From the IMG/VR virus record IMGVR_UViG_2695420822_000010: 5,566 nucleotides of DNA; one strand, 5' to 3'. Of the stretch, positions 1 through 5,566 are shown in pieces. The stretch is from a virus (lineage: Duplodnaviria; Heunggongvirae; Uroviricota; Caudoviricetes). Position 1 is the first letter of the stretch. Each line of letters starts with the position of its first letter. The position numbers and the translations under genes are program-made. Under the pieces are notes generated by a model, which was not told the DNA's origin, did no database searches, and was given only the letters and a program-made list of their open reading frames with translations.

Positions 1-950
1 ACGCGCTTGCGGGTAAGCAACCGAAAGATGCCACCCTGACGGCGCTGGCCGGACTTACTACTGCGGCAGGCAAGTTTCCGTATTTTACGGGGAATGATGT
101 CGCCAGCCTGGCAACCCTGACAAAAGTCGGGCGGGATATTCTTGCGAAATCGACCGTTGCCGCCGTTATCGAATACCTCGGTTTACGAGAACTCGGCACA
201 AGCGGGGAGAAAATACCGTTACTCAGTACAGCGAATACCTGGACTAATCGACAAACATTCAGCGGTGGCCTTTCTGGTGAACTATCCGGCAATGCTTCTA
301 CAGCTGCAAAATTAAAAACTGCCAGGAAAATAAGCAATGTGGCTTTTGATGGTTCCTCCGATATCACATTAAAAGCAAGTCATGTTGGTGCGTTTGCCTT
401 AGGGAAAACAGGAAGCACCGTTGCGAATGATAAAGCAGTTGGATGGAACTGGAGTAGCGGAGCCTATAACGCAACTATTAGTGGTGCATCAACGTTAATT
501 ATTCATTTTTATATGGGAGAAGGAAGTTGTCCTGCAGCTCAGTTTCGGATTAATTATAAAAATGGCGGTATTTTTTATCGTTCAGCCCGTGATGGTTATG
601 GTTTTGAAGCCGACTGGTCCGAATTTTACACCACCAGAAAACCTTCAGCAGGAGATGTTGGTGCACTGCCGTTATCTGGTGGTCAACTGAATGGTGCACT
701 GGGTATCGGAACATCCAGTGCTCTTGGCGGTAATTCGATTGTATTGGGTGATAATGACACGGGCTTTAAACAAAAAGGCGATGGTAATCTGGATGTTTAT
801 GCTAATAACGTCCATGTTATGCGCTTTGTCTCCGGAAGCATTCAAAGTAATAAAACCATAAATATTACGGGACGTGTTAATCCCTCGGATTACGGTAACT
901 TTGATTCCCGCTATGTGAGAGATGTCAGACTTGGCACACGAGTTGTTTAG
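1..950 (+). CDS. stf: Side tail fibre protein (lambdoid Stf-like), C-terminal portion, cassette A. 5' end lies outside the window (codon phase 3); reading frame ends at an in-frame TAG at 948-950.
   Basis: The frame is open from base 3 to 950 with no stop. The translation (..[71 protein letters not shown]) shares a [14 protein letters not shown] block and a VRD(V/I)RLG block with the minus-strand cassette C protein (4292-5104). The supplied ORF 339..950 only starts at the first GTG; the true ORF continues upstream. Confidence 0.8.
   Translation, partial: ALAGKQPKDATLTALAGLTTAAGKFPYFTGNDVASLATLTKVGRDILAKSTVAAVIEYLGLRELGTSGEKIPLLSTANTWTNRQTFSGGLSGELSGNASTAAKLKTARKISNVAFDGSSDITLKASHVGAFALGKTGSTVANDKAVGWNWSSGAYNATISGASTLIIHFYMGEGSCPAAQFRINYKNGGIFYRSARDGYGFEADWSEFYTTRKPSAGDVGALPLSGGQLNGALGIGTSSALGGNSIVLGDNDTGFKQKGDGNLDVYANNVHVMRFVSGSIQSNKTINITGRVNPSDYGNFDSRYVRDVRLGTRVV
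166..191. other. Candidate serine-invertase crossover site (gix/hix/cix/pix-like), 12-2-12 imperfect dyad TTATCGAATACC-TC-GGTTTACGAGAA, inside the tail fibre coding sequence.
   Basis: Read directly. The left half TTATCGAATACC and the reverse complement of the right half TTCTCGTAAACC both fit the half-site TTATCnnAAACC of Hin/Gin-family crossover sites (consensus quoted from memory), with a 2-bp centre. It lies in frame in the tail fibre gene (encodes VIEYLGLRE), as gix sites do in Mu S. Confidence 0.55.
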
Positions 951-1100
951 ACCATGAAGAAAGGCGTGATGTATGAAAAATCAGGCCATGTAATCACGGG
1001 GCTTGGTATTATCGGTGAAGTCGATGGTGATGATCCGGCAGTATTCAGACCAATACAAAAGTTAATTAACGGAACATGGTATAACGTATCGCAGGTATAA
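951..1100 (+). pseudogene. In-frame continuation of cassette A after the TAG at 948-950; encodes the conserved tail-fibre C-terminal end (..[28 protein letters not shown]), stop TAA at 1098-1100. Together with 1-950 it forms one ancestral ORF interrupted by an amber codon.
   Basis: Same frame as 1-950. The translation [49 protein letters not shown] aligns with the C-termini of cassette C (..[41 protein letters not shown]) and cassette B (..[17 protein letters not shown]), and the homology runs straight across the TAG. A tfa start codon follows 2 nt after the stop, as at the other two cassettes. Confidence 0.7.
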
Positions 1101-1102
1101 TC

Positions 1103-1587
1103 ATGCAGCATTTAAAAAACATTGTCGCAGGTAATCCAAAAACCGTTGAACAATACCAGCTAACAAAGAATTTTGATGTTATCTGGTTATGGTCCGAAGA
1201 TGGAAAAAATTGGCATGAGGAATTAAAAAACTTTCAGGAGGATACAATAAAACTGGCTTACACAGTTGAGGGAATAATTATTGCTATAGACAAGGATGTA
1301 TCAGCAATTAATCCAGAAGGTTTAAGTGTCGTTGAGTTGCCTGATATTACAGCAAATCGCCGGGCTGATATTTCGGGCAACTGGATGTTCAAAGATGGTG
1401 CGGTGATAAAGCGAACTTATACCGAGGAAGAGCAAAGGCAACAAGCGGAAAATGAAAAGCAGAGCCTGCTGCAGCTCGTCAGGGATAAAACCCAGCTGTG
1501 GGACTCTCAGCTACAGCTGGGCATCATTTCCGATGAGAATAAACAAAAATTAACCGAGTGGATGCTCTATGCGCAGAAGGTTGAATC
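1103..1587 (+). CDS. tfa: Tail fibre assembly protein (Tfa family chaperone), cassette A; 3' end lost at the N-run 1588-1598.
   Basis: ATG at 1103, 2 nt after the tail-fibre stop. The translation [55 protein letters not shown] is homologous to the other two tfa copies in the window. The tail of the supplied ORF (1599-1660) is IS sequence read in an arbitrary frame after the gap and is not part of tfa. Confidence 0.85.
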
Positions 1588-1598
1588 NNNNNNNNNNN
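1588..1598. other. Run of 11 N (assembly gap or mask) joining the tfa cassette A sequence to the interior of the IS element.
   Basis: Read directly. Coding sequence of two unrelated genes abuts the N-run on either side. Confidence 0.9.
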
Positions 1599-1599
1599 T

Positions 1600-1839
1600 G
1601 AAAATCAACTTTCGATCAGTGAAGGCGCTTCCCGATTATCTCTTCCTGAAGGCACTTTAGGACAATGGGTTACCGCCGCCAGAAAAGGGCTCGGTACTCC
1701 TGGTTCCCGCACGGTGGCTGAACTGGAATCTGAAATTCTGCAACTGCGTAAGGCGTTAAATGAAGCTCGCCTTGAGCGAGATATATTAAAAAAAGCAACA
1801 GCGTATTTTGCACAGGAGTCGCTGAAAAATACGCGTTAA
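1600..1839 (+). CDS. IS3-family transposase OrfA, C-terminal fragment (..ENQLSISEGASRLSLPEGTLGQWVTAARKGLGTPGSRTVAELESEILQLRKALNEARLERDILKKATAYFAQESLKNTR*).
   Basis: Open frame from the gap edge to TAA at 1837-1839. It has the leucine-zipper-like C-terminus characteristic of IS3-family OrfA and carries the slippery A-run near its 3' end. Confidence 0.8.
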   Translation, partial: ENQLSISEGASRLSLPEGTLGQWVTAARKGLGTPGSRTVAELESEILQLRKALNEARLERDILKKATAYFAQESLKNTR

Positions 1840-1874
1840 TCGAACAATGGCGACAACAATTTCCCATTGAAGCG

Positions 1875-2693
1875 ATGTGTCAGGTATTTGGTGTATCCAG
1901 GAGCGGTTATTACAACTGGGTACAGCATGAACCCTCAGACAGAAAACAAAGTGATGAGCGGCTAAAACTGGAGATTAAGGTGGCACATATCCGCACTCGC
2001 GAAACATATGGAACCCGGCGGCTCCAGACGGAGCTGGCAGAGAATGGCATCATCGTTGGTCGTGACCGACTGGCACGTCTTCGTAAGGAGCTAAGGCTAC
2101 GCTGTAAGCAGAAACGCAAGTTCAGAGCGACTACGAACTCGAACCACAATCTGCCAGTTGCGCCAAATCTGCTGAACCAGACGTTCGCTCCTACAGCACC
2201 AAATCAGGTCTGGGTGGCGGACCTGACGTATGTTGCCACACAGGAGGGATGGTTGTACCTCGCTGGCATCAAAGATGTTTATACGTGCGAAATTGTCGGC
2301 TACGCCATGGGAGAGCGCATGACAAAAGAGCTGACAGGTAAAGCCCTGTTTATGGCGCTCAGGAGCCAGCGCCCACCTGCCGGGCTAATCCACCACTCTG
2401 ATCGAGGTTCACAGTACTGCGCATACGATTACCGGGTCATACAGGAGCAGTCTGGTCTGAAAACATCAATGTCGCGTAAAGGTAACTGTTACGACAACGC
2501 TCCGATGGAAAGCTTCTGGGGAACGCTGAAAAATGAGAGCCTGAGCCACTATCGTTTTAATAACCGGGATGAAGCCATCTCAGTAATACGGGAATACATT
2601 GAGATTTTCTACAATCGTCAGCGTCGTCACTCTCGTCTGGGGAATATCTCCCCGGCAGCCTTCAGGGAAAAATATCATCAGATGGCTGCTTAA
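1875..2693 (+). CDS. IS3-family transposase OrfB (DDE catalytic domain). The frame is open from 1791, so it is most likely expressed as an OrfAB fusion by -1 frameshifting at 1788-1794.
   Basis: The 272-aa ORF (MCQVFGVSRSGYYNW..VWVADLTYV..HSDRGSQY..CYDNAPMESFWGTLKNE..) carries the spacing and residues expected of an IS3-family DDE transposase. It lies in the -1 frame relative to OrfA and overlaps it. Confidence 0.9.
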   Translation: MCQVFGVSRSGYYNWVQHEPSDRKQSDERLKLEIKVAHIRTRETYGTRRLQTELAENGIIVGRDRLARLRKELRLRCKQKRKFRATTNSNHNLPVAPNLLNQTFAPTAPNQVWVADLTYVATQEGWLYLAGIKDVYTCEIVGYAMGERMTKELTGKALFMALRSQRPPAGLIHHSDRGSQYCAYDYRVIQEQSGLKTSMSRKGNCYDNAPMESFWGTLKNESLSHYRFNNRDEAISVIREYIEIFYNRQRRHSRLGNISPAAFREKYHQMAA

Positions 2694-2736
2694 AAAAAGA
2701 ACAAATGGTAGTGTCCGCTATTGCCAGTACACCTCA

Positions 2737-3003
2737 GAGTTTTACACCACAACCCGCAAACCCTCTGCGGGAGATGTTGGTGCATATACGCAGGCAGAAT
2801 GTAACTCAAGGTTTATTACAGGTATTCGCCTTGGTGGTCTGTTATCTGTTCAGACATGGAATGGTCCCGGATGGTCTGACAGGTCAGGTTATGTTGTTAC
2901 CGGTTCCGTTAACTCAAACAGAGATGAACTAATTGATACAACTCAGGCAAGGCCAATTCAGTATTGCATTAATGGGACGTGGTATAACGCGGGGAGTATT
3001 TAA
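2737..3003 (+). pseudogene. Tail fibre C-terminal cassette B, 3' fragment ([52 protein letters not shown]), with its 5' part displaced by the IS element.
   Basis: The supplied ORF 2599..3003 is IS terminal sequence up to 2736 and tail-fibre-like only from 2737. The fragment begins exactly at the motif EFYTT(T)RKPSAGDVGA, which is also present in cassette A at 621-665, and ends with the conserved RPIQ..I.G.WYN tip. A tfa start follows 2 nt later. Confidence 0.7.
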
Positions 3004-3005
3004 CG

Positions 3006-3695
3006 ATGATGCACTTAAAAAACATTTCTGCTGGTAATCCTGAAACAAAAGAGCAATACCAGCTAACGAAACAATTTAACATCAAATGGCTTTATACAGA
3101 GGATGGGAAAAACTGGTATGAGGAACAAAAGAACTTTCAGCCTGATACGTTGAAAATGGTCTATGACCACAACGGCGTTATTATTTGTATTGAAAAGGAT
3201 GTTTCAGCAATTAATCCGGAAGGCGCAAGCGTCGTTGAGGTTCCTGATATTACAGCAAATCGCCGGGCTGATATTTCGGGCAACTGGATGTTCAAAGATG
3301 GTGCGGTGATAAAGCGAACTTATACCGAGGAAGAGCAAAGGCAACAAGCGGAAAATGAAAAGCAGAGCCTGCTGCAGCTCGTCNNNNNNNNNNAGGTTCC
3401 TGATATTACAGCAAATCGCCGGGCTGATATTTCAGGTAAATGGATGTTCAAAGATGGCGTAGTGATAAAGCGAACTTATACCGGGGAAGAGCAGAGGCAA
3501 CAAGCGGAAAATGAAAAGCAAAGCCTGCTACAGCTCGTCAGGGATAAAACCCAGCTATGGGACTCACAGCTACGGCTGGGCATTATTTCCGACGAGAATA
3601 AACAAAAATTAACCGAGTGGATGCTCTATGCGCAGAAGGTCGAATCCACAGACACCTCCAGCCTGCCAGTAACGTTTCCCGAACAACCAGAATGA
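3006..3695 (+). CDS. tfa: Tail fibre assembly protein (Tfa family), cassette B. The ORF as assembled contains a 10-N gap (3384-3393) and a duplicated segment of roughly 140 bp, so the real protein is probably about 180 aa rather than 229.
   Basis: [22 protein letters not shown].. with stop TGA at 3693-3695. Segment 3243-3383 is identical to cassette A tfa 1340-1480. The sequence after the gap restarts at the same point (aggttcctgatattacagc..) as a roughly 94%-identical version. Confidence 0.8.
3384..3393. other. Run of 10 N inside tfa cassette B, flanked by two overlapping versions of the same tfa segment (contig-overlap join).
   Basis: Read directly; see the duplicated peptide [14 protein letters not shown](N/K)WMFKDG.. 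on both sides. Confidence 0.9.
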
Positions 3696-3698
3696 GAG

Positions 3699-3718
3699 AA
3701 GGCCCGCTATCGGGCCTT
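3699..3718. terminator. Perfect hairpin AAGGCCCG-CTAT-CGGGCCTT located 3 nt after the tfa cassette B stop, between the convergent tfa genes; candidate bidirectional intrinsic terminator.
   Basis: An 8-bp GC-rich stem with a 4-nt loop, read directly. The downstream U-tract cannot be assessed because the N-run starts at 3719. Confidence 0.5.
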
Positions 3719-3865
3719 NNNNNNNNNNNNNNNNNNNNNNNNNNNNNNNNNNNNNNNNNNNNNNNNNNNNNNNNNNNNNNNNNNNNNNNNNNNNNNNNNN
3801 NNNNNNNNNNNNNNNNNNNNNNNNNNNNNNNNNNNNNNNNNNNNNNNNNNNNNNNNNNNNNNNNN
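3719..3865. other. Run of 147 N; probably hides the 3' end of the minus-strand tfa (cassette C).
   Basis: tfa cassette C shows 141 codons before running into the gap; Tfa proteins in this window run to about 175-185 aa. Confidence 0.8.
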
Positions 3866-4290
3866 GCCATATTCAGCCTGACAGCGCGTTCCAGCGGCTG
3901 GATGACTGATTCAGCTTCGGAAAGCAATGCGGCCTTTTGTGATTCGGCCTGTTGTTGCAGTTCCTGTTCTGTATATTCCCTCTTTACTACTTTACCATCC
4001 AGAAACATCCATTTTCCGTTATTGTCTGCGTGACGATTTGCCGTAATATCAGGAACTTCAACTATGCTTAGCCCTTCAGGATTAATAGTTGAAACGTCTT
4101 TACTGACAGCAACGATGATGTTGTTCTCATCGTAAGCAATTTTTATGGTGTCTGGCTGAAAATTCTTTTGTTCCTCATACCAGTTTTTGCCATCTTCGCA
4201 AAAGAGCCATACCACGCCCGCTTTTTTAGTTAGCTGGTATTGTTCCGGTGTTTTCGGATTCCCGGCCTTAATATTTTTCAGGTGCATCAT
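3866..4290 (-). CDS. tfa: Tail fibre assembly protein (Tfa family), cassette C, minus strand; 3' end lies in the gap.
   Basis: The start is ATG ATG at complement 4290-4285 ([39 protein letters not shown]..), 1 nt after the stop of the minus-strand tail-fibre cassette. The first 12 codons of the supplied ORF ([12 protein letters not shown]) overlap the tail-fibre stop and are not used. Confidence 0.8.
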
Positions 4291-4291
4291 C

Positions 4292-5104
4292 TTAAACACT
4301 CCCCACGTTGTACCATATTCCCCCAATCAATTTCTGAATTGGCCTTCTGGCAACAGTGTCGACAATATCATCCGCATTGCTGTTAATTGCGGCTGTTAAA
4401 ACATAACCTGACGCATCGCCAAAGCCGTAGTCGCGCCATACGTTTTTATATTCAATGCTGCCAAGACGAATATCCCGAACGACATGATTATGCAGCCATG
4501 TGCTTAACCAGTTGTTTTCCCACACTGAACCATAAATATCGCCACTAGACGCAACTTGCGCACCACTTCCCAGCGCAAATCCCCCATCTGTTTTAAAAAT
4601 GAAATCACCACCACCATCTGAACCGTTATTAATATGAACACCATCACCACCGTTATCTTTCCACAAAAACATACGAATTCTTCCGTCTTCGTTGGCGAAT
4701 GTAATGTGGTGGCGGTAATTACTTTTTAATCTAAAATTGCTGCCATTAGATTCAATATCTTTATAAAGATGTAATCCTAACTCATCAATATGTCCGATGC
4801 GCGAACCATTTGAATAGAAGCTAATAATACCATCTCCATCTTGCCTAAATCCGGTGTCGTTATCTCCCAGAACAATGGAGTTTTCACCCAGTGCGTTATC
4901 AGTAGCTCCAATAGCTAGACCTCCTTTAATTTTGGCCCCGTGGCTGACAGATATAGCACCTGTTCTCAGATTTATAGCGAATGGCCTTAATGGGCCGATA
5001 TTACCGTTTTCGCCTTGTCCTTCAGCCGTCGGAATGAAATGAAGAAAATCTTCTGAACGACGGAAAATTAGACCGAAGGTATCATTGAAAATTCGCAGCG
5101 CATT
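4292..5104 (-). CDS. Tail fibre C-terminal cassette C, minus strand (receptor-binding tip variant); 5' part hidden by the 381-N run.
   Basis: Stop TAA at complement 4294-4292. The translation ..[58 protein letters not shown] shares blocks with cassette A but carries about 74 extra residues between the GDNDTGF block and the tip. Confidence 0.8.
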
Positions 5105-5485
5105 NNNNNNNNNNNNNNNNNNNNNNNNNNNNNNNNNNNNNNNNNNNNNNNNNNNNNNNNNNNNNNNNNNNNNNNNNNNNNNNNNNNNNNNNNNNNNNNN
5201 NNNNNNNNNNNNNNNNNNNNNNNNNNNNNNNNNNNNNNNNNNNNNNNNNNNNNNNNNNNNNNNNNNNNNNNNNNNNNNNNNNNNNNNNNNNNNNNNNNNN
5301 NNNNNNNNNNNNNNNNNNNNNNNNNNNNNNNNNNNNNNNNNNNNNNNNNNNNNNNNNNNNNNNNNNNNNNNNNNNNNNNNNNNNNNNNNNNNNNNNNNNN
5401 NNNNNNNNNNNNNNNNNNNNNNNNNNNNNNNNNNNNNNNNNNNNNNNNNNNNNNNNNNNNNNNNNNNNNNNNNNNNNNNNNNNNN
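5105..5485. other. Run of 381 N inside the minus-strand tail-fibre cassette.
   Basis: Read directly. Confidence 0.9.
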
Positions 5486-5566
5486 GTCACTGTATGCGGC
5501 ATCTTGTCGTGCTGGTGGTGGAAGCCTAGAAAAAGTATCGGGTGTTGCTGAACCGTGTTGATACAT

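What the first reader, a model, noticed from the sequence alone, without database searches (positions are those of the whole stretch)
166..191. Invertase crossover-like site embedded in the tail fibre gene
TTATCGAATACC-TC-GGTTTACGAGAA has the 12-2-12 imperfect dyad and the TTATCnnAAACC half-site that I recall for the hix/gix/cix/pix sites used by Hin/Gin/Cin/Pin/Min serine invertases. It lies in frame inside the Stf-like ORF, where it would mark the boundary between a constant N-terminal part and an exchangeable C-terminal part, as in Mu S and the e14 P region. It is the only such site visible; any partner would lie in the N-runs or outside the window.
Basis: partly seen in the sequence, partly recalled or inferred. 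Interest (0 to 1): 0.7.

Follow-up and report, generated by a model that had tools for sequence, protein, structure and literature searches.

The report
Tail-fibre invertase crossover site (bixL-like)
The 26-bp sequence is a genuine, well-known kind of DNA-flipping site that lets a prophage swap the tip of its tail fibre, here in a decayed copy of the Shigella/E. coli PinB-Gin type switch, so it is real but ordinary.

Summary
TTATCGAATACC-TC-GGTTTACGAGAA lies at 166-191 and is the only such site in the window (0 of 200 shuffles give one). It sits in frame (VIEYLGLRE) in a tail-fibre gene, in the codon register Mu S uses at gixL.

Against published Din-family sites it is 24/26 to bixL of the Shigella boydii PinB system. 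The constant-side half-site matches 12/12 and the GA/TC core is the same. It is 23/26 to P1 cixR, 22/26 to Mu gix and 18-20/26 to e14 pix.

Ungapped relatives at 99-100% identity (IMG/VR L026 and L020, E. coli NCTC86) show what the N-runs hide. They have an inverted partner identical to bixR, which falls in the window's N-run at about 5180-5232. A Gin-like invertase pseudogene follows it. Window 5486-5566 is the tail of that pseudogene.

In same-lineage prophages the exchange point maps to positions 10-19 of the site.

This copy is decayed. The expressed cassette has a TAG at 948-950, an IS600 is present, and the adjacent invertase is dead. An intact invertase lies 1.2 kb further on in L026.

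The kind of system is known, so interest is low.

The parts
1..165 (+). 3' end of the constant part (Sc) of a prophage tail-fibre gene, frame 3
   Evidence: Translation is ALAGKQPKDATLTALAGL...AKSTVAAV, the same as P2 H at this point. Identity to P2-like prophage H genes is 95.7% up to window 186 and is then lost. Many phage H genes match only up to window 186.
166..191 (+). Crossover site of a Din-family (Gin/PinB-type) serine invertase, constant-side ('left') copy. 166-177 is the constant-side half-site, 178-179 is the TC core (GA on the other strand), and 180-191 is the cassette-side half-site.
   Evidence: It is unique in the window, with 0 of 200 shuffles matching. It is 24/26 to bixL, 23/26 to cixR and 22/26 to gix. 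It is in the same frame as gixL in Mu S. Natural exchange points map to site positions 10-19.
192..1100 (+). Variable C-terminal cassette Sv1 in the expressed orientation, with a premature TAG at 948-950
   Evidence: Pfam gp37_C hit. It is 100% identical to L020 and L026 over 909 nt. The TAG at 948-950 is CAG in NCTC86.
1103..1587 (+). Tail-fibre assembly (chaperone) gene tfa1, whose 3' end is lost at the 11-N gap / IS600
   Evidence: Pfam Caudo_TAP, E = 3e-27. Annotated as a tail fiber assembly protein in NCTC86.
1599..2736 (+). IS600 (IS3 family), with about 125 nt of its left end missing at the gap
   Evidence: 99.7% identical to annotated IS600 copies. rve and HTH_21 domains are present.
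2737..3003 (+). C-terminal fragment of a second variable cassette (Sv2), with no site of its own
   Evidence: 91.7-94.5% identical to the end of H in P2-like prophages L003 and L002. It ends ...[11 protein letters not shown] like the other cassettes.
3006..3695 (+). tfa2, artificially lengthened by unmerged contig ends either side of the 10-N gap at 3384-3393
   Evidence: Caudo_TAP hit. Repeat family D1 shows 3238-3383 and 3394-3540 as two versions of the same stretch.
3866..4290 (-). tfa3', the chaperone gene of the silent cassette, with its 3' end in the N-run 3719-3865
   Evidence: Caudo_TAP, E = 2e-20. 100% identical to L026 and L020.
4292..5104 (-). Silent variable cassette Sv3' in the inverted orientation, with its N-terminal ~76 nt hidden in the N-run
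   Evidence: gp37_trimer hit. 100% identical to L026 and L020. In four E. coli genomes this cassette type is fused to Sc exactly at the site.
5105..5485 (.). N-run predicted to hide four things: the start of Sv3', the inverted partner site (bixR-identical, at about 5180-5205 counting from the left or 5207-5232 counting from the right), a 54-nt spacer, and the first ~200 nt of the invertase pseudogene including the enhancer-equivalent stretch
   Evidence: This is inferred from L026, which is 100% identical on both sides of the gap. L026 has its site at 5498-5523 and its remnant starting at 5578. NCTC86 has the same layout.
5486..5566 (+). Tail of a Gin-like invertase pseudogene (about residues 67-79, ...HCMRHLVVLVVEA*) and its truncation junction
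   Evidence: 100% identical to NCTC86 L001 12409-12489 and to L026 5777-5857. Translation compared with Pin, Cin and Gin.

Best explanation
Window 166-191 is the constant-side crossover site of a tail-fibre host-range switch of the Gin/Cin/Pin/PinB (Din) serine-invertase family. It is closest to bixL of the Shigella boydii B segment.

The mechanism comes from established knowledge of the family and was not tested here. An invertase dimer binds each of two inverted 26-bp sites. A Fis-bound enhancer in the 5' end of the invertase gene helps assemble the synapse. Both sites are cut at the central TC/GA dinucleotide, one pair of half-sites rotates 180 degrees, and the ends are rejoined. This flips the 3-5 kb between the sites. 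The constant N-terminal part of the tail fibre (ending ...VIEYL) then becomes fused to a different C-terminal receptor-binding cassette, together with that cassette's chaperone (tfa) gene.

In this window the switch is decaying. The expressed cassette has a nonsense codon. An IS600 sits beside its chaperone gene. The invertase gene next to the hidden partner site is a pseudogene. Inversion in this genome could therefore occur only if an invertase is supplied in trans. The closest ungapped relative has an intact one about 1.2 kb beyond the window's end.
For: Site identity. The site is unique in the window and absent from 200 shuffles. It is 24/26 to published bixL, with a 12/12 constant-side half-site and the same GA core. 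It is 23/26 to cixR and 22/26 to gix, and all 26 bases occur in some published functional site. Mu and P1 sites taken from their own GenBank annotations agree.

Position. It has the same codon register as gixL in Mu S (IQNLGLQE against IEYLGLRE). Homology to P2-like H genes ends inside the site.

Partner and enzyme.
- All three ungapped E. coli relatives have exactly two sites, inverted, bracketing Sv-tfa-tfa'-Sv', with a recombinase gene about 55-80 nt beyond the right site.
- Of 10 IMG/VR contigs with the exact 26-mer and about 3 kb or more downstream, 8 have a complete inverted partner 2.7-3.1 kb away. A ninth is cut by the contig end inside the partner site.
- L026 and L020 are 99.9-100% identical to window pieces 1-1587 and 3866-5104, and L026 also to 5486-5566. 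They place a bixR-identical partner inside the window's N-run.

Real exchange. ETEC1706 shares with ZY22049 flanks that are 99.9-100% identical and the same recombinase protein. Its left junction follows ZY22049's left flank through site position 19 and ZY22049's right-hand cassette from position 10 onward. NCTC86 and L023 carry the same 2962-nt segment in opposite orientations at 99.5% identity.

Decay. TAG at 948-950, IS600, and a remnant with in-frame stops whose homology ends after about nt 235.

Enhancer. The stretch that P1 annotates as the enhancer (nt 19-90 of cin) is 71/72 identical to Mu gin in the L026 remnant and 70/72 in the NCTC86 remnant.
Against: - No partner site, enhancer or intact invertase is visible in the window itself. 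All three are inferred from relatives across an N-run whose length differs from L026 by 27 nt.
- The scaffold has four N-runs, and pieces 1599-3718 are absent from the closest relatives, so the true order of the pieces is uncertain.
- No inverted sibling of this exact locus was found. The inverted-junction hits are only 94.5-96.2% identical.
- P2 H has a 23/26 near-copy of the site with no invertase, and contig L027 has the exact site with no partner. A site alone therefore does not prove a working switch.
- The NCTC86/L023 flip could be due to homologous recombination across arms of about 750 nt.
Confidence: 0.92

Rival explanations
1. Fossil site. The sequence descends from a crossover site, but in this genome it is only coding sequence for the conserved VIEYLGL stretch of a dead tail-fibre gene, and the segment no longer flips. 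This overlaps with the best explanation on origin and differs from it only on present activity.
For: The adjacent invertase is a pseudogene with stops and a truncation, as seen in NCTC86 and L026, and the window carries the identical truncation junction. The expressed cassette has a nonsense codon and an IS600 is present. P2 H keeps a 23/26 near-site without any invertase. L027 and strain 4238 are frozen derivatives without a partner. All six NCTC86-type complete genomes show the same orientation.
Against: In relatives the partner site is intact and identical to bixR, and the enhancer-equivalent stretch is 70-71/72 identical to Mu gin. L026 has an intact 201-aa invertase 1.2 kb further on. From established knowledge, Din invertases complement one another. 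NCTC86 and L023 differ by an inversion despite the dead invertase.
Confidence: 0.45
2. Where inversion of this segment occurs, it is driven by RecA-type homologous recombination between long inverted repeats (near-identical Sv arms) and not by site-specific cleavage at the 26-bp site.
For: NCTC86 and L023 have inverted arms of about 750 nt with only one difference in the first 734 nt, and both have a dead adjacent invertase. The single informative position does not fit a clean site-specific exchange.
Against: The window's own lineage (L026, L020) has arms no longer than the site, about 15 nt. In the ZY22049/ETEC1706 pair the switch point lies within 10 bp of the site core. The identical core dinucleotide in inverted register at every locus is a requirement of the invertase mechanism, not of homologous recombination.
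Confidence: 0.1
3. Chance resemblance: an unrelated dyad inside a coding sequence.
For: None beyond the fact that the site is imperfect (9/12 dyad matches).
Against: 0 of 200 shuffles match. It is 24/26 to bixL. It has the same frame and position as in Mu and P1. Inverted partners are present in 8-9 of 10 informative contigs.
Confidence: 0.01

Closest known systems
Shigella boydii invertible B segment with PinB (bixL/bixR; GenBank D00660, sites as tabulated in PMC3241671)
   Same: The window site is 24/26 to bixL, with an identical constant-side half-site (GGTATTCGATAA) and an identical GA core. The partner in the closest relatives equals bixR 26/26. The left site of relatives L002 and L003 and the right site of L020 equal bixL 26/26. 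Both are tail-fibre cassette switches.
   Different: The cassette-side half-site is TTCTCG..., which is like cix/pix, and not TTCCTG.... The adjacent invertase is a pseudogene. An IS600 and an extra cassette fragment are present. D00660 itself could not be aligned here.
Phage Mu G segment with Gin (gixL/gixR)
   Same: The site is 22/26 with the same GA/TC core. It is in the same reading frame within the tail-fibre gene S. The layout is the same: Sc | Sv-U-U'-Sv' | invertase. The invertase remnant is 174-175/180 nt identical to gin at its 5' end.
   Different: The cassettes differ. The host element is a P2-like or lambdoid prophage, not Mu. The invertase is not intact next to the partner site.
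Phage P1 C segment with Cin (cixL/cixR)
   Same: It is 23/26 to cixR, which is the Sc-side site and shares the unusual GGTATT/AATACC half-site variant. The enhancer lies inside the 5' end of the invertase gene.
   Different: The core dinucleotide is AA/TT in cix and GA/TC here. From established knowledge, sites with different cores are not expected to recombine productively with each other.
e14 P region with PinE (pixL/pixR) in E. coli K-12
   Same: It belongs to the same family and is also a cryptic-prophage tail-fibre switch with decayed cassettes.
   Different: Identity is only 18-20/26 and the core is AA. It is a different prophage and locus, so the window is not the e14 P region.
Phage P2 gene H (non-invertible tail fibre)
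   Same: The constant part is nearly identical, and P2 has a 23/26 near-copy of the site at the same codons (VIEYLGLQE).
   Different: The 5.1-kb P2 stretch examined has no partner site at up to 6 mismatches, and no invertase gene is known for P2 (established knowledge). This shows that the motif can persist as plain coding sequence.

Membership tests
Din-family invertase crossover site (hix/gix/cix/pix/mix/bix) | A 26-bp site made of two 12-bp imperfectly inverted half-sites around a 2-bp core, matching the family consensus | tested here: met
   It has 2 mismatches to the pattern, is unique in the window, and 0 of 200 shuffles match. It is 24/26 to bixL, and all 26 bases occur in published sites.
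Din-family invertase crossover site (hix/gix/cix/pix/mix/bix) | For the tail-fibre switches, the site lies in frame at the junction of the constant and variable parts of the fibre gene | tested here: met
   The codon register is the same as gixL in Mu S. Homology with other H/stf genes ends at window 186.
Din-family invertase crossover site (hix/gix/cix/pix/mix/bix) | A second site in inverted orientation with the same core dinucleotide, a few kb away in cis | tested here: inconclusive
   It is not visible in the window. It is present in relatives that are 100% identical on both sides of the 5105-5485 N-run (L026). It is also present in NCTC86 and in 8-9 of 10 informative IMG/VR contigs.
Din-family invertase crossover site (hix/gix/cix/pix/mix/bix) | A serine invertase gene of the Gin/Hin subfamily adjacent to one site | tested here: inconclusive
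   The window shows only an 81-nt tail of a Gin-like pseudogene. An intact 201-aa invertase lies 1.2 kb beyond the equivalent of the window's end in L026, but NCTC86 has none there.
Din-family invertase crossover site (hix/gix/cix/pix/mix/bix) | A Fis-dependent recombinational enhancer in cis | tested here: inconclusive
   The stretch equivalent to P1's annotated enhancer (nt 19-90 of cin) is kept in the relatives' remnants, 70-71/72 identical to Mu gin. In the window it lies in the N-run. Fis binding was not tested.
Din-family invertase crossover site (hix/gix/cix/pix/mix/bix) | DNA between the sites is actually found in both orientations, with exchange at the core | tested here: inconclusive
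   This is met for the family. The switch point maps to site positions 10-19 in ZY22049 against ETEC1706 and strain 4238, and NCTC86 and L023 carry inverted segments. For this exact locus no inverted sibling was found and no reads are available.
bix / PinB subgroup (S. boydii B segment) | GA core and the bixL/bixR half-site sequences | tested here: met
   GA core, constant-side half-site 12/12, and 24/26 overall to bixL. The predicted partner equals bixR 26/26.
pix / Pin of e14 | AA core and pix half-sites, located in e14 next to pinE and mcrA | tested here: not met
   It is 18-20/26 with a GA core rather than AA. The closest relatives are a lambdoid prophage at ompW/trp and P2-like prophages.

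The most novel reading that the evidence does not exclude
The most novel reading still open is an orphan switch driven in trans. The segment has lost its own invertase but keeps both sites and the enhancer inside the pseudogene stump. It would be flipped either by an invertase from another prophage or by the intact copy that sits behind a third, directly repeated site in L026. That would give a multi-site arrangement in which the larger inversion also carries a SAM-dependent methyltransferase gene.
Probability: 0.12. Interest if true: 0.4.

Novelty: new member of a known kind. Interest (0 to 1): 0.15.

Why it matters
It matters mainly for annotation and assembly. These 26-bp sites are not annotated in E. 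coli or Shigella genomes. They explain why tail-fibre regions of prophages break short-read assemblies and appear as 'partial' or 'frameshifted' tail-fibre genes. The 66-nt context of this site occurs in 331 of 5426 complete E. coli genomes, so the switch family is a common source of host-range variation and of tail-fibre module exchange between P2-like and lambdoid prophages. It adds no new mechanism.

Tried and rejected
- Exact-match scans of genome contigs with the 26-mer and with the 21-mer shared with bixL both found nothing, so no cross-species distribution could be drawn.
- I tried to tell site-specific from homologous inversion in the NCTC86/L023 pair using differences between the inverted arms. 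The arms differ at only one informative position, so the test has no power.
- I expected ETEC1706 to be a simple inversion of ZY22049. Its segment instead holds two copies of the same cassette type with frameshifted tfa genes. Only the junction sequences were used, not the whole segment.
- Strain 720632 (H36) looked like an ungapped version of the window's IS600 region. Its IS600 turned out to be an independent insertion at a different point in a tfa gene.
- I first expected 5486-5566 to lie in an intact recombinase gene. It is a pseudogene tail and junction.
- I considered the e14 P region as the identity of the locus and rejected it on the core dinucleotide and site identity.

Full report
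**Observation.** The window reads TTATCGAATACCTCGGTTTACGAGAA at 166-191. It is a 12-2-12 imperfect dyad with 9 of 12 arm positions complementary, a level reached by only 2 of 4892 26-mers in the window. With the pattern TTATCNNAAACCNNGGTTTNNGATAA and up to 3 mismatches it is the only match on either strand, and none of 200 dinucleotide-preserving shuffles gives a match. It remains the only match at 5 mismatches. It lies in the frame that is open from 3 to 947 and encodes ...STVAAVIEYLGLRELGTSG....

**Comparison with known sites.** I took reference sites from annotated records and from a published table, not from memory.
- The Mu record marks the G-segment boundaries, and 26-mers centred on them are TTATCCAAAACC TC GGTTTACAGGAA and its reverse complement.
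- The P1 record annotates cixL, cixR, the crossover positions and the enhancer.
- Table 3 of PMC3241671 lists hix, gix, cix, pix, mix and bix sites.

In the table's orientation the window site is TTCTCGTAAACC GA GGTATTCGATAA. Its identity to each published site is as follows:

| Site | Identity | Note |
|---|---|---|
| bixL | 24/26 | right half 12/12, same GA core |
| cixR | 23/26 | |
| gixL / gixR | 22/26 | |
| bixR | 22/26 | |
| hixL | 21/26 | |
| pixL | 20/26 | |
| pixR | 18/26 | |

Each of the 26 bases occurs in at least one published functional site. The codon register is the same as in Mu S: TT-ATC-CAA-AAC-CTC-GGT-TTA-CAG-GAA gives IQNLGLQE, and here the same register gives IEYLGLRE.

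**The site is a module boundary.** P2-like phages and prophages match the window at 93-98% up to window 186 and then diverge, while others match only after the site. Prophages L002 and L003 match window 1-186 at 95.7% and lose similarity beyond it.

**What the window contains.**
- The end of the constant tail-fibre part, at 1-165.
- The site, at 166-191.
- Cassette Sv1, at 192-1100, with TAG at 948-950 where NCTC86 has CAG.
- Chaperone gene tfa1, at 1103-1587.
- An 11-N gap.
- A left-truncated IS600, at 1599-2736.
- A C-terminal fragment of another cassette, at 2737-3003.
- tfa2, at 3006-3695, with unmerged duplicate contig ends around a 10-N gap.
- A 147-N gap.
- On the minus strand, tfa3' at 3866-4290 and the silent cassette Sv3' at 4292-5104.
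- A 381-N gap.
- 81 nt at 5486-5566.

**What the gaps hide.** E. coli NCTC86 (L001) matches window 1-1587 at 99.1% and window 5486-5566 at 100%. There the locus is the side tail fibre of a lambdoid prophage next to ompW/trp. It has a second site, TTCTCGTAAACCGAGGTTTTAGATAA, in inverted orientation at L001 12130-12155, followed by a recombinase pseudogene.

Two IMG/VR contigs are closer still. L020 and L026 are 99.9% identical to window 1-1587 and 100% identical to window 3866-5104. L026 is also 100% identical to 5486-5566. In L026 the stretch that corresponds to the window's 381-N run is 354 nt. It holds the first 76 nt of Sv3', an inverted site TTCCTGTAAACCGAGGTTTTAGATAA (equal to bixR, 26/26), a 54-nt spacer, and the first ~200 nt of a Gin-like gene. 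This places the partner at about window 5180-5205 counting from the left, or 5207-5232 counting from the right.

The Gin-like gene is dead. Its reading frame runs VLIGYVRVSTNDQ...GDALVV*KLD*LGHCMRHLVVLVVEA*, and similarity to gin ends after about nt 235. Window 5486-5566 translates to HCMRHLVVLVVEA*KKY..., which is the tail of this stump and its truncation junction. Within the stump, the stretch that P1 annotates as the recombinational enhancer (nt 19-90 of cin) is 70-71/72 identical to Mu gin. In L026 a methyltransferase gene comes next, followed by a third bixR-type site and an intact 201-aa invertase. NCTC86 has no intact invertase there.

**How general the arrangement is.** The exact 26-mer occurs in 25 IMG/VR contigs. 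Of the 10 with about 3 kb or more downstream, 8 have a complete inverted partner with a GA core 2.7-3.1 kb away. A ninth (L021) ends inside the partner. One (L027) has a deletion that runs into P2-like tail genes. Six of the eight also show a Gin-like gene about 80 nt after a partner site: full length in L025, L026 and L032, and only the stump next to the partner in L017, L023 and L030. The 66-nt context of the site is present at 80% coverage or more in 331 of 5426 complete E. coli genomes.

**Evidence that exchange happens at the site.** I built the left junction expected after inversion of the L026 segment and searched complete E. coli genomes with it. Four genomes carry it as one continuous alignment at 94.5-96.2% identity.

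ETEC1706 (L034) and ZY22049 (L003) have flanks that are 99.9-100% identical and the same recombinase protein accession. In ZY22049 the Sv3-type cassette is silent on the right, whereas in ETEC1706 it is fused to Sc. Base by base, the ETEC1706 left junction equals ZY22049's left flank through site position 19 and ZY22049's right-hand cassette from position 10 onward. The switch therefore lies in a 10-bp interval that contains the core. Strain 4238 shows the same fused junction but has lost the second cassette and most of the invertase.

Separately, NCTC86 and IMG/VR contig L023 carry the same 2962-nt segment in opposite orientations, at 99.5% identity inverted against 63% direct, with the right flank 99.7% identical. 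Their inverted arms are about 750 nt long and nearly identical. Homologous recombination therefore cannot be excluded for that pair.

**Mechanism.** This step is inferred from established knowledge of Gin, Hin and Cin and from PMC3575834. Invertase dimers bind both sites. Fis on the enhancer activates the synaptic tetramer. Double-strand cuts at the 2-bp core leave the enzyme serine-linked to the DNA, a 180-degree subunit rotation follows, and the ends are rejoined. The non-palindromic TC/GA core gives each site a polarity, and at every locus examined the two sites have the core in inverted register. The outcome is that the constant fibre part is fused to another receptor-binding cassette with its own chaperone gene.

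**State of this copy.** The nonsense codon, the IS600 and the dead adjacent invertase show a decaying prophage module. Whether it still flips depends on an invertase in trans. One exists just beyond the equivalent of the window's end in L026, but it cannot be shown for the window's genome. P2 H keeps a 23/26 near-copy (TTATCGAATATCTCGGTTTACAGGAA) without any invertase, so the sequence can persist as coding DNA alone.

**Uncertainties.** The window is a scaffold with four N-runs. Pieces 1599-3718 are absent from L026 and L020 and resemble P2-like prophage sequence, so they may reflect a real IS600-associated rearrangement or a mis-scaffold. The gap length differs from L026 by 27 nt.

**Verdict.** Two refinements apply: the nearest relatives are bix/PinB and gix/Gin rather than e14 pix, and a stump of the invertase gene is in fact visible at the window's right end. 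This is a new member of a well-known kind of system, and its interest is low.

Noticed in passing
window 948-950: A TAG stop about 50 codons before the normal end of the expressed tail-fibre cassette. NCTC86 has CAG at this codon, so the expressed fibre gene is a pseudogene here.
   Followed up: yes
window 1588-2736: An IS600 lacking about 125 nt of its left end at an 11-N gap. Its two flanks (the 3' part of tfa1 on the left, a C-terminal cassette fragment on the right) do not belong together. This points to an IS-mediated deletion or a mis-scaffold.
   Followed up: partly
window 3238-3383 and 3394-3540: Two versions of the same tfa stretch lie either side of a 10-N gap. The first matches the corresponding stretch of tfa1 by eye and the second is about 93% identical to tfa1. 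These look like unmerged contig ends, so the 229-aa 'tfa2' ORF is artificially long.
   Followed up: partly
L026 (oriented as the window) 5578-7319; stored coordinates 4539-6343: Beyond the invertase stump there is a class-I SAM methyltransferase gene, then a third bixR-type site in direct repeat with the second site, and an intact 201-aa invertase. This is a three-site arrangement around a methyltransferase gene.
   Followed up: partly
L001 9180-9930 and 11390-12141: NCTC86 has near-identical inverted cassette arms of about 750 nt (one difference in 734 nt). IMG/VR contig L023 has the whole 2962-nt segment flipped, although the adjacent invertase is dead in both.
   Followed up: partly
L034 4986-7987: The ETEC1706 segment holds two copies of the same cassette type in inverted orientation, with frameshifted tfa genes. 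It may be a consensus built from a culture with mixed orientations.
   Followed up: no
window 3696-3718: A GC-rich hairpin (GAAGGCCCGCTATCGGGCCTT) lies right after the tfa2 stop, at the point where the convergent tfa genes meet. It is probably a bidirectional terminator.
   Followed up: no
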